From Escherichia coli phage NG_S8, in the sequence record LC788711.1: 64,000 bases of DNA, one strand, 5' to 3'. Below the pieces are notes generated by a model. The model saw only the letters and a list, made by a program, of their open reading frames with translations, did not search any database and had not been told where the DNA came from. Position 1 is the first letter of the stretch, and every line of letters starts with the position of its first letter. Made by a program: the position numbers and the translations under genes. Shown here piece by piece: positions 21,667 through 30,762 of the stretch.

Positions 21667-21747
21667 ATCCAATGTTTGGTAGGGATGGAGGGACTCGAAC
21701 CCACACCCGAAGACTAGAACCTAAATCTAGCGCGTCTGCCAATTTCG
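21667..21747 (-). tRNA. tRNA-Leu (TAG)
   Basis: D-arm GCG-loop-CGC; anticodon arm CTAGA-TTTAGGT-TCTAG. Confidence 0.6.
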
Positions 21748-21764
21748 CCACATCCCCATTTTAT

Positions 21765-25008: not shown

Positions 25009-25111
25009 ATCTATTTCCTCAGTTGTTAATGAAAAATGGTATCTGTGACTGAATTCAATATCAGTAATGATAGCTGGTTGGCTACCGGTTTACTTAACTC
25101 TACACAGAATA

Positions 25112-25194
25112 TGGCGGGCCGTGTAGGATTCGAACCTACGTTGTCTTTCGACATGGATTAACAGTCCACCGCCAAACCGCTTGGCTAACGACCC
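25112..25194 (-). tRNA. type II tRNA with GTT (Asn) anticodon and G73
   Basis: Ser-like D-arm GCC-AAGCGGTTT-GGC, variable hairpin GTCGAAAGAC, anticodon arm GTGGA-CTGTTAA-TCCAT. Confidence 0.55.
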
Positions 25195-25201
25195 TAAAAT
25201 T

Positions 25202-25277
25202 TGGACGACCGCATGAGATTCGAACTCACATAAGGAGGTTTTGCAGGCCTCCGCCTAAGCCATTCAGCCAACGGTCG
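25202..25277 (-). tRNA. tRNA-Cys (GCA)
   Basis: anticodon loop CTGCAAA. Confidence 0.6.
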
Positions 25278-26016: not shown

Positions 26017-26091
26017 TGGTGCACCCCGTTGGTAACGATCCAACCTCTCAAGCTCTTCAGGCAAGCGCTAATCCATCTCAGCTAAAGGTGC
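26017..26091 (-). tRNA. divergent tRNA, possibly Phe (GAA)
   Basis: CCA, acceptor and D-arm pair; T-loop ATCGTTA atypical; loop CTGAAGA with weak stem. Confidence 0.4.
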
Positions 26092-27271: not shown

Positions 27272-27349
27272 TGGTAGGGGTGGTGGGATTCGAACCCACA
27301 AAACCTGAATTTTAAGTCCAGTACCTATGCCAATTCGATTACACCCCCA
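27272..27349 (-). tRNA. tRNA, anticodon read as TAA (Leu), class I-like
   Basis: CCA encoded; T-arm gtggg-attcgaa-cccac; loop CTTAAAA; D-arm unclear. Confidence 0.45.
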
Positions 27350-30318: not shown

Positions 30319-30762
30319 TTAATTAAATTCGCCAGCAACCTGAGCAGCGATGCCACCGTCATAACGACCAGGGAATTCTTCCTTAATCGCTTTCATCAGC
30401 ATACCTTTTGTAATCCCAGGGTTCAACTTAACTAATTCTGCAAAGTATTTGCGAATCTCAGAATCAGAAAGCTGAGGAGGCAGATACTGTTGTAACCATT
30501 TGTTCAGTATATATTCATACTGAGCAGACTGCAAGCTATAATTATCAAGGTCTTGACCATGAAGTTTAGCTTTCGTCTGATTAATGCTTTTCAGTTGAGC
30601 TTTTAGATAAGATACAAACTGCTCAGAAGTAATGAAGTCTTTATCAACACGCTGAAGATCTCCGATTATGGTCTGATAGCTTTTAGCTACTTCTTTATCA
30701 GAACCATCAACCTTAGATTCCTGCAAAGCCCTACGCAAAACATCTAGAATATTCTCTTCCAT
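30319..30762 (-). CDS. GatB/YqeY-domain protein (147 aa)
   Basis: C-terminal pattern YLPPQLS...GITKGMLMKAIKEEFPGRYDGG resembles YqeY family. Confidence 0.55.
   Translation of the reverse strand: MEENILDVLRRALQESKVDGSDKEVAKSYQTIIGDLQRVDKDFITSEQFVSYLKAQLKSINQTKAKLHGQDLDNYSLQSAQYEYILNKWLQQYLPPQLSDSEIRKYFAELVKLNPGITKGMLMKAIKEEFPGRYDGGIAAQVAGEFN

What the first reader, a model, noticed from the sequence alone, without database searches (positions are those of the whole stretch)
25112..25194. Type II (long variable arm) tRNA carrying an Asn GTT anticodon and G73
The T-arm, acceptor stem and encoded CCA are clean. The D-arm (GCC-AAGCGGTTT-GGC) and variable hairpin (GTCGAAAGAC) are serine-tRNA-like, and long variable arm plus G73 are SerRS identity elements. 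The anticodon loop reads CTGTTAA (GUU), and GUU plus G73 are AsnRS identity elements. No canonical class I tRNA-Asn was found in the window. It could be an unusual Asn tRNA, or a Ser-charged tRNA decoding AAC/AAU.
Basis: partly seen in the sequence, partly recalled or inferred. Interest (0 to 1): 0.6.

Follow-up and report, generated by a model that had tools for sequence, protein, structure and literature searches.

The report
Phage asparagine tRNA with tyrosine-type extra arm
This T5-like phage carries a real asparagine tRNA built on a long-extra-arm (class II) body that bacteria normally use only for leucine, serine and tyrosine tRNAs; the same odd design is widespread in phages and seems never to have been described.

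Summary
Window 25112-25194 (minus strand) encodes an 83-nt tRNA with anticodon GUU, G73, encoded CCA and a 13-nt variable region (3-bp stem, GAAA loop, 3 unpaired nt). It is the only tRNA-Asn among about 30 tRNAs in a T5-like phage array.

It is not a one-off. The same design occurs in T5-like, T4-like, rV5-like and phiKZ-like phages, in more than 120 IMG/VR contigs, and in only about 17 of 185,579 bacterial or archaeal species genomes, mostly inside large tRNA arrays. The extra helix covaries, and G73 is kept in 101 of 109 distinct sequences.

The arm geometry and the masked sequence profile match bacterial tRNA-Tyr. E. coli tRNA-Tyr has the same 13-nt arm with the same GUC/GAC stem.

Most likely it is a working tRNA-Asn charged by host AsnRS, whose identity set (GUU plus G73) is complete, on a Tyr-derived body. 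G73 blocks TyrRS, and the short arm makes SerRS charging unlikely. No charging data exist.

The gene is routinely annotated tRNA-Asn, but I found no paper that notes its class II architecture.

The parts
25112..25194 (-). Whole tRNA-Asn(GUU) gene, 83 nt including the encoded CCA; class II (long variable arm) architecture
   Evidence: ARAGORN; Rfam tRNA 59 bits; MFE cloverleaf; model R1 77.2 bits
25188..25194 (-). Acceptor stem 5' strand GGGUCGU (G1-C72, G2-C71, G3-C70, U4-G69)
   Evidence: Sequence; all 7 acceptor pairs covary in the family
25171..25185 (-). D arm GCC-AAGCGGUUU-GGC. Three G-C pairs; A13 and U22 could add a fourth.
   Evidence: Sequence; the family consensus has a 3-bp D stem with covariation
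25153..25169 (-). Anticodon arm GUGGA-CUGUUAA-UCCAU. It differs from E. coli tRNA-Asn (GCGGA-CUGUUAA-UCCGU) only at the 28-42 pair.
25160..25162 (-). Anticodon GUU (tRNA positions 33-35 by raw count, 34-36 by standard numbering)
   Evidence: ARAGORN, anticodon at position 33
25140..25152 (-). Variable region GUC-GAAA-GAC-AAC: 3-bp stem, GAAA tetraloop, 3 unpaired nt on the 3' side
   Evidence: stem covariation in the family
25123..25139 (-). T arm GUAGG-UUCGAAU-CCUAC
25116..25122 (-). Acceptor stem 3' strand ACGGCCC
25115..25115 (-). Discriminator G73
   Evidence: G73 in 101 of 109 distinct family members although the search pattern did not require it
25112..25114 (-). Genome-encoded CCA 3' end
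25202..25277 (-). Context: tRNA-Cys(GCA), 7 nt upstream in the same array. The Cys-Asn pairing is conserved in T5-like phages.

Best explanation
This is a functional phage tRNA-Asn that decodes AAC and AAU and is charged with asparagine by the host AsnRS. Charging would rest on the two elements that define bacterial Asn identity, the GUU anticodon and G73. Its body, however, is a class II tRNA of the bacterial tRNA-Tyr type. It belongs to an old, diverse lineage that is almost confined to phages and tRNA arrays. That lineage most likely arose from a tRNA-Tyr(GUA) through A36->U and A73->G, and persists because AsnRS does not read the variable region. G73 keeps TyrRS and LeuRS off. The short Tyr-type arm, unlike the long arm of tRNA-Ser, keeps SerRS from charging it efficiently. 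Shown here: the gene, its fold, its family, the covariation, the Tyr-like geometry, and the retained Asn identity set. Inferred: the charging enzyme, the Tyr origin, and the neutrality of the arm.
For: The gene and fold are supported. It is the only tRNA-Asn in an array of about 30 tRNAs that covers nearly every amino acid. It sits in the same Cys-Asn slot as T5's class I tRNA-Asn, and expression of that T5 tRNA helps rescue cells whose tRNA-Asn is cleaved by PARIS AriB (PMC12409363).

The family is large: 650 phage records match, and 534 of them cover at least 80% of the query. They span Demerecviridae, Straboviridae, Marfavirus, Phapecoctavirus and a phiKZ-like phage. More than 120 IMG/VR loci match, giving about 100 distinct long-arm sequences. 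In the covariance-model alignment 96.7% of cells are paired, and all four variable-stem pairs have changes on both sides, in 42 and 39 sequences at the two central pairs.

G73 occurs in 101 of 109 distinct sequences and U1 in 74 of 109, the latter typical of bacterial tRNA-Asn. Asn identity can be transplanted into tRNA-Lys with only the anticodon and G73, and G73 is listed as an antideterminant for TyrRS and LeuRS (PMC9976931).

The body is Tyr-like. The arm geometry matches tRNA-Tyr. 78 of 109 sequences score best on the masked tRNA-Tyr profile. tRNA-Tyr is the commonest nearest neighbour for the D region, the T arm and the acceptor strand. The window tRNA is 59% identical to E. coli tRNA-Tyr with 2 gap columns, against 50% to E. 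coli tRNA-Asn and 49% to tRNA-Ser.
Against: There are no aminoacylation or tRNA-sequencing data for this tRNA. The window copy has G1-C72, G2-C71, C11-G24 and G73, which also belong to the E. coli serine identity set (PMC9976931), so some SerRS charging cannot be excluded from sequence. From my own knowledge, class IIb synthetases approach tRNA from the variable-loop side, so a long arm could interfere with AsnRS; this was not tested.

The Tyr-likeness is partly driven by arm length. Asn and Tyr tRNAs from the same phage are no more alike than random pairs (0.585 against 0.585), so the Tyr origin, if real, is ancient and hard to prove. The IMG/VR sample was drawn with a pattern that fixes the anticodon arm, so conservation of that arm there carries no information.
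Confidence: 0.72

Rival explanations
1. The extra arm is selected, not a neutral legacy. The tRNA still carries asparagine, but the arm protects it from, or titrates, host factors that attack host tRNA-Asn, such as anticodon nucleases or toxins. Alternatively it serves as a handle for a phage or host processing factor. This would explain why the design is nearly confined to phages and mobile tRNA arrays.
For: Enrichment is strong. About 15 of 120 viral-contig hits are long-arm, and 111 of 120 long-arm genes sit in tRNA arrays, against about 17 genuine cases in 185,579 species genomes. Host tRNA-Asn is a known target of the PARIS effector AriB and of colicin E5 (PMC12409363; PMC1635277 abstract). 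The arm is kept as a helix across very divergent sequences.
Against: The window tRNA keeps the AriB cleavage context of E. coli tRNA-Asn, U36-A-A-U-C|C41. The allele shown to help against PARIS is T5's class I tRNA-Asn, which is mutated at that site. The same phage arrays also contain leucine tRNAs that have lost the long arm, which fits drift wherever the synthetase ignores the arm. No nuclease is known that reads the variable region of tRNA-Asn.
Confidence: 0.15
2. The tRNA is charged with serine, wholly or partly, by host SerRS, which ignores the anticodon and reads G73 plus a long variable arm. It would then insert Ser at Asn codons.
For: G73, G1-C72, G2-C71 and C11-G24 are present in the window copy. 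[quoted passage not shown] Natural long-arm tRNAs with non-serine anticodons (allo-tRNAs) can insert Ser (PMC5389517).
Against: The arm has a 3-bp stem and 3 unpaired nt on the 3' side. Phage and E. coli tRNA-Ser have 5-7 bp and 0-1 unpaired nt. From my own knowledge of Himeno et al. 1990 (paper not held), E. coli tRNA-Tyr needs a 3-nt lengthening of this arm as well as G73 to become a SerRS substrate. Two thirds of the family have U1-A72 rather than the G1-C72 conserved in bacterial tRNA-Ser. It is the only Asn decoder in the array and occupies the slot of a proven tRNA-Asn. Proteome-wide Asn-to-Ser errors would hit the phage's own proteins.
Confidence: 0.05
3. The body is not Tyr-derived. 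An ordinary class I tRNA-Asn acquired a hairpin insertion in its variable loop, possibly several times.
For: The anticodon arm is nearly identical to that of host tRNA-Asn, and U1-A72 is common in the family. 6 of 109 members score best on the class I Asn profile.
Against: The D arm is also class II in type: a 3-bp stem with a GAGCGG-type loop. tRNA-Tyr is the top neighbour for the D region, T arm and acceptor strand. 78 of 109 members score best on the tRNA-Tyr profile with the anticodon loop masked. The similarity of the anticodon arm is expected from AsnRS and decoding constraints.
Confidence: 0.15
4. It is a non-translational tRNA-like element or a decaying pseudogene.
For: T5-like arrays do contain degenerate tRNA-like RNAs, for example T5 rna3 and the weak Phe-like tRNA at 26020-26091.
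Against: It has a perfect cloverleaf, a canonical UUCGAAU T loop, GG in the D loop and an encoded CCA. 207 phage records are at least 99% identical. Compensatory changes occur in every helix.
Confidence: 0.03

Closest known systems
Bacterial class I tRNA-Asn(GUU), e.g. E. coli asnT/U/V/W
   Same: Same anticodon, same anticodon loop CUGUUAA, anticodon stem differing at one pair, G73, and so the complete known AsnRS identity set.
   Different: E. coli tRNA-Asn has a 5-nt variable loop, a 4-bp D stem and U1-A72. The window tRNA has a 13-nt arm with a helix, a class II-type D arm and G1-C72. Overall identity is only 50%.
Bacterial class II tRNA-Tyr(GUA), e.g. E. coli tyrT
   Same: Both have a 13-nt variable region with a GUC/GAC 3-bp stem and 3 unpaired nt on the 3' side, a GAGCGG-type D loop and a nearly identical T arm. 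Identity is 59% with 2 gap columns, and the anticodons differ by one base (GUA/GUU).
   Different: The window tRNA has U36 instead of A36 and G73 instead of A73, that is, both major tyrosine determinants outside G34/U35 are replaced by the asparagine ones.
Bacterial tRNA-Ser
   Same: Both are class II and share G73, G1-C72, G2-C71 and C11-G24.
   Different: The Ser arm is longer (5-7 bp stem, 15-23 nt) with 0-1 unpaired nt on the 3' side. The masked profile score is 11.0 bits against 23.9 for Tyr.
Phage T5 tRNA-Asn (T5t17), class I allele
   Same: It occupies the same Cys-Asn slot with a homologous downstream flank, and has a GUU anticodon, G73 and CCA.
   Different: It is 78 nt with a 5-nt variable loop and a mismatched anticodon stem changed at the AriB site. 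It is overlapped by a T5orf172/MUG113-domain ORF. It is the allele tested in the PARIS work.
Allo-tRNAs (Mukai et al., PMC5389517) and nematode nev-tRNAs (Hamashima et al.; own knowledge)
   Same: These are natural tRNAs that combine a long variable arm with an anticodon outside Leu, Ser or Tyr.
   Different: Allo-tRNAs have 8/4 or 9/3 acceptor/T stems and probable Ser or Ala identity. nev-tRNAs are eukaryotic and Leu-charged. In both, the anticodon and the identity disagree. Here the branch is a canonical 7/5, and the anticodon and discriminator agree with each other (Asn).

Membership tests
tRNA (Rfam RF00005) | Cloverleaf that scores above the family's gathering threshold | tested here: met
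   59 bits against a gathering score of 29, full model 1-71; ARAGORN call
Bacterial tRNA-Asn (AsnRS identity set) | Anticodon G34 U35 U36 | tested here: met
   GUU in the loop CUGUUAA; identity rule from PMC9976931
Bacterial tRNA-Asn (AsnRS identity set) | Discriminator G73 | tested here: met
   G at 25115; G73 in 101 of 109 family members
Bacterial tRNA-Asn (AsnRS identity set) | Aminoacylation with Asn by AsnRS | not testable with these tools
   Needs an in vitro charging assay or charged-tRNA sequencing
Bacterial tRNA-Asn (canonical architecture) | Class I body: 4-5 nt variable loop and 4-bp D stem | tested here: not met
   13-nt variable region with a helix; E. coli tRNA-Asn has 5 nt
Class II (long variable arm) tRNA | Variable region longer than 10 nt that forms a stem-loop | tested here: met
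   13 nt, 3-bp stem plus GAAA loop; the stem covaries
Class II (long variable arm) tRNA | 3-bp D stem with an unpaired 13:22 | tested here: inconclusive
   The family consensus has 3 pairs. In the window copy A13 and U22 could form a fourth pair.
Bacterial tRNA-Tyr | Tyr-type variable arm (about 3-bp stem, about 3 unpaired nt on the 3' side) | tested here: met
   distributions; same arm length and same stem sequence as E. coli tyrT
Bacterial tRNA-Tyr | A73 and anticodon GUA | tested here: not met
   G73 and GUU; G73 is listed as an antideterminant for TyrRS
Bacterial tRNA-Ser | Long variable arm of Ser geometry (stem of 5 bp or more, 0-1 unpaired nt on the 3' side) | tested here: not met
   3 bp and 3 unpaired nt here; Ser has 5-7 bp and 0-1 in 92 phage tRNA-Ser and in E. 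coli serT
Bacterial tRNA-Ser | G73, G1-C72 and G2-C71 | tested here: met
   Present in the window copy, but U1-A72 is found in 48 of 76 aligned family members
Allo-tRNA | 8/4 or 9/3 acceptor/T-stem configuration | tested here: not met
   7-bp acceptor stem and 5-bp T stem, both covarying; definition from PMC5389517

The most novel reading that the evidence does not exclude
The Tyr-type extra arm on phage tRNA-Asn is an adaptive device. Either it acts as a steric shield or decoy that lets the phage's Asn decoder survive host immune nucleases and toxins that destroy tRNA-Asn, or it gives the tRNA a second (Ser) identity so that AAC/AAU are deliberately read ambiguously during infection. In either case it would be a new structural strategy in the phage-host contest over tRNAs, separate from the anticodon-loop mutations described so far.
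Probability: 0.15. Interest if true: 0.8.

Novelty: new variant of a known kind. Interest (0 to 1): 0.55.

Why it matters
Textbooks and current reviews restrict long-arm (class II) tRNAs in bacteria to Leu, Ser, Tyr and Sec. This finding adds a conserved, covarying class II tRNA-Asn. It occurs in at least 534 deposited phage genomes and in roughly one in eight viral-contig tRNA-Asn genes that carry this anticodon arm.

It implies that AsnRS tolerates a Tyr-type arm. Where U1-A72 is kept, the same would hold for the ND-AspRS/GatCAB route. It is also a natural example of how two substitutions (A36U, A73G) could move a tRNA from one amino acid to another.

It matters for work on phage tRNAs as counter-defence, because tRNA-Asn is a target of PARIS and colicin E5. 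It matters for tRNA annotation pipelines that rely on isotype-specific models, and for engineering orthogonal tRNAs. If the arm proved to be adaptive, the interest would rise sharply.

Tried and rejected
- Literature: searches were aimed at a description of a long-arm tRNA-Asn in phages, and searched related topics. None turned up such a description. PMC2474678 treats tRNA-Asn only as type I.
- Host origin: blastn of the tRNA against 5,426 E. coli genomes gave only E > 0.5 matches to tRNA-Lys, Asn and Arg fragments, so it is not a recent host capture.
- Recent duplication of the phage's own tRNA-Tyr: rejected. Co-resident Asn/Tyr identity is 0.585, the same as for random pairs.
- MAFFT plus RNAalifold did not recover the variable stem because its register shifts between sequences. 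This was solved with a covariance-model alignment.
- T5's 'anticodon to amber suppressor' annotation and the PARIS rescue data could not be applied directly. T5 carries a different, class I allele.
- I tried to find out whether BASEL phage Bas34, whose own tRNA-Asn does not protect it from PARIS, carries the class II allele. I could not map the phage name to an accession.
- Himeno et al. 1990 (the Tyr-to-Ser identity switch) is not held, so that point rests on memory.
- Ten or so of the 33 genome hits are tandem partial tRNA-Asn copies in Saprospiraceae and other Bacteroidota, not class II tRNAs.
- The YqeY-like protein near the array is also present in T5, so it is not specific to the class II allele.

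Full report
**Observation.** ARAGORN calls tRNA-Asn (anticodon gtt) at 25112-25194. The Rfam tRNA model matches 25115-25194 at 59 bits, against a gathering score of 29. The minimum-free-energy fold is a cloverleaf plus one extra hairpin, -30.5 kcal/mol, z -2.31. From the RNA reads GGGUCGU-UA-GCC-AAGCGGUUU-GGC-G-GUGGA-CUGUUAA-UCCAU-GUCGAAAGACAAC-GUAGG-UUCGAAU-CCUAC-ACGGCCC-G-CCA. The variable region is therefore 13 nt: a 3-bp stem, a GAAA loop and 3 unpaired nt on the 3' side. The discriminator is G73 and CCA is encoded.

**Context.** The window is a T5-like phage, 99.8% identical over the tested kilobase to Salmonella phage 3-29; related Salmonella phage 1-23 is classified in genus Epseptimavirus. 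The tRNA lies in a minus-strand array of 29 ARAGORN tRNAs plus one weak Phe-like tRNA found only by Rfam. It is the only Asn decoder there. Relatives annotate it as tRNA-Asn.

**It is a family, not an oddity.**
- blastn of the 83 nt against 50,697 phage records finds 650 records. 534 of them cover at least 80% of the query, and 207 are at least 99% identical.
- Full-length long-arm tRNA-Asn(GUU) genes of 83-87 nt occur in several groups: Demerecviridae (Epseptimavirus, the Tequintavirus Lindwurm, the Novosibvirus PM135); T4-like Straboviridae (Winklervirus X20, Jiaodavirus KpV477, Moonvirus CF1); Marfavirus; the rV5-like Phapecoctavirus nepoznato; and the phiKZ-like Pseudomonas phage PA1C.
It gave about 100 distinct long-arm tRNA-Asn sequences. 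111 of the 120 lie in tRNA arrays.
- A scan that allowed both short and long gaps returned 15 long-arm and 105 short-arm loci in the same slice of the collection. Among array-embedded genes the counts were about 12 long against 54 short.
- The same long-gap pattern found only 33 loci in one genome each of 185,579 bacterial and archaeal species. ARAGORN recognises a class II tRNA-Asn in 17 of them, mostly inside arrays of 10-36 tRNAs such as those of Micromonospora and Verrucosispora. About ten others are tandem partial tRNA-Asn copies in Saprospiraceae and related Bacteroidota and are false positives.
- E. coli genomes contain nothing similar.

**The extra arm is a conserved helix.** I built a covariance model from 45 diverse members and used it to align 77 (76 distinct) family members. 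On that alignment 96.7% of cells form standard pairs, against 63.8% in shuffles and 34-44% for slid partners. All four variable-stem pairs have changes on both sides. The two central pairs show such changes in 42 and 39 sequences, with four to five pair types each. The D stem has three covarying pairs. The alignment was fitted to the model, which favours the structure, but the range of arm sequences can also be seen in the raw sequences: GUCGAAAGAC, AUCCGCAAGGAU, GUCAGAAAUGAC, GGCGAAAGCC and others.

**What the body resembles.** Tested against the Ser, Leu and Tyr tRNAs of the same loci, the arm instead has tRNA-Tyr geometry.

| tRNA group (distinct sequences) | Stem, mode | Loop | Unpaired nt on the 3' side |
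|---|---|---|---|
| Long-arm Asn (109) | 3-4 bp | 4 nt | 3-4 |
| Tyr (59) | 3 bp | 3-5 nt | 3 |
| Ser (92) | 5-7 bp | 4 nt | 0-1 |
| Leu (77) | 4 bp | 4 nt | 1 |

With the anticodon loop and discriminator masked, 78 of 109 long-arm Asn sequences score best on the tRNA-Tyr profile. The window sequence scores Tyr 23.9, class I Lys 19.8, class I Asn 11.7 and Ser 11.0 bits. tRNA-Tyr makes up 4% of the comparison set but is the commonest top-5 neighbour for the D region, the T arm and the acceptor strand. I confirmed the E. coli tRNA-Tyr, tRNA-Asn and tRNA-Ser sequences against 5,426 genomes. Against them the window tRNA is 59% identical to tRNA-Tyr with two gap columns, 50% to tRNA-Asn and 49% to tRNA-Ser. 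E. coli tRNA-Tyr has the same 13-nt arm with the same GUC/GAC stem. Asn and Tyr tRNAs from the same phage are no closer than random pairs. Any Tyr origin is therefore old, not a recent in-phage duplication.

**Identity and mechanism.**
- In bacteria, Asn identity rests on the anticodon and G73. It can be transplanted into a tRNA-Lys body with just those four bases (PMC9976931).
- The window tRNA has all four. Its anticodon arm differs from E. coli tRNA-Asn at one base pair.
- G73 was not required by my search pattern, yet it is present in 101 of 109 family members, whereas 57 of 59 Tyr tRNAs have A73.
- U1, typical of bacterial tRNA-Asn, is present in 74 of 109.
- G73 is listed as an antideterminant for TyrRS and LeuRS.
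- Serine identity depends mainly on the size and orientation of the long arm plus G73 and the first acceptor pairs. The window copy has G73, G1-C72 and G2-C71, but its arm has Tyr length and geometry. From memory of Himeno et al. 1990 (not held), E. coli tRNA-Tyr needs a 3-nt lengthening of this arm as well as G73 to become a SerRS substrate.

I therefore infer Asn charging by the host AsnRS, with low or no Ser charging. This step is inferred, not shown.

**Synteny with T5.** In T5 the same Cys-Asn slot, with a homologous downstream flank that begins right after CCA, holds a 78-nt class I tRNA-Asn. That tRNA has a mismatched anticodon stem and is overlapped by ORF T5.069, which has T5orf172 and MUG113 domains. 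About 134 phage records carry that allele at 95% identity or more, often annotated together with the endonuclease-like ORF. About 268 records carry the class II allele. The Tequintavirus Lindwurm has the class II allele. The T5 allele helps rescue cells from PARIS AriB, which cleaves E. coli tRNA-Asn at U36AAUC|C41 (PMC12409363). The window tRNA keeps exactly that sequence. The long arm is therefore not obviously a PARIS countermeasure, although this was not tested.

**Broader pattern.** The same arrays contain leucine tRNAs without a long arm. In the window, tRNA-Leu(UAA) at 27272-27348 has a 5-nt variable loop and A73. Occasional long-arm tRNAs also carry Cys, Thr, Ile, Met, Trp or Glu anticodons. 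E. coli LeuRS does not need the arm. This fits a picture in which phage tRNAs drift between structural classes wherever the cognate synthetase ignores the variable region. It favours, without proving, a neutral legacy over an adaptive arm.

**Novelty.** The gene is routinely annotated tRNA-Asn in GenBank, but none of my literature searches found any mention of its class II architecture. The PARIS paper that works with T5-like tRNA-Asn never uses the word 'variable'. The nearest described oddities, allo-tRNAs, have 8/4 or 9/3 stems and mismatched identity, unlike this canonical 7/5 tRNA whose anticodon and discriminator agree. I rate it a new variant of a known kind. It is moderately surprising to a tRNA specialist and directly testable.

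Noticed in passing
window 27272-27348 (-) and 21677-21757 (-): tRNA-Leu(UAA) is 77 nt with only a 5-nt variable loop and A73, so it is a leucine tRNA with a class I shape. tRNA-Leu(UAG) has a shortened 9-nt variable region. Across all fetched loci, 62 of 139 distinct Leu tRNAs lack a long arm.
   Followed up: partly
window 26020-26091 (-): A weak tRNA found only by Rfam (33.4 bits) and missed by ARAGORN. It has anticodon GAA (Phe), two U-U mismatches in the anticodon stem and an unusual T loop AUCGUUA. It occupies the position of T5 tRNA-Phe.
   Followed up: partly
L011 12007-12525 (T5 ORF T5.069), compared with window 25195-25201: In T5 and about 134 relatives, a T5orf172/MUG113-domain ORF (annotated in some records as a putative homing endonuclease) is inserted between tRNA-Cys and tRNA-Asn. 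It overlaps the 5' end of a class I tRNA-Asn allele. Phages with the class II allele have only a 7-8 nt spacer there. This looks like an endonuclease-linked allele replacement. In phage fuchur the breakpoint lies inside the 3' end of the tRNA.
   Followed up: partly
window about 25036-25109 (-): A conserved non-coding stretch directly after the tRNA CCA is homologous to T5 'rna3, putative tRNA-like RNA'. Its function is unknown.
   Followed up: no
window 30319-30762 (-): A 147-aa protein with a weak YqeY-like match (25.4 bits, cutoff 27; the GatB-tail type of tRNA-binding domain). It is the counterpart of T5.081, annotated 'tRNA amidotransferase', and lies just beyond the tRNA array.
   Followed up: partly
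IMG/VR loci L012-L131: Long variable arms also occur on phage tRNAs with Cys (8), Thr (8), Ile (12), Met (7), Trp (5) and Glu (4) anticodons, counted as distinct sequences. The Cys ones all have U73 and the Trp ones G73, that is, the discriminators of their anticodon's amino acid.
   Followed up: no
L135, L136, L140, L161 (Micromonospora and Verrucosispora chromosomes): Chromosomal arrays of 23-36 tRNA genes within about 5 kb include a class II tRNA-Asn (variable region 16-17 nt, U1, G73) and several Leu tRNAs with a class I shape. In make-up they resemble phage arrays.
   Followed up: no
L143 5470-5850 (Saprospiraceae MAG); similar in L133, L142, L146, L152, L159: Tandem 128-nt repeats each carry the 5' half of tRNA-Asn fused to unrelated sequence, upstream of an intact class I tRNA-Asn. 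They may be scars of repeated integration at the tRNA gene.
   Followed up: partly
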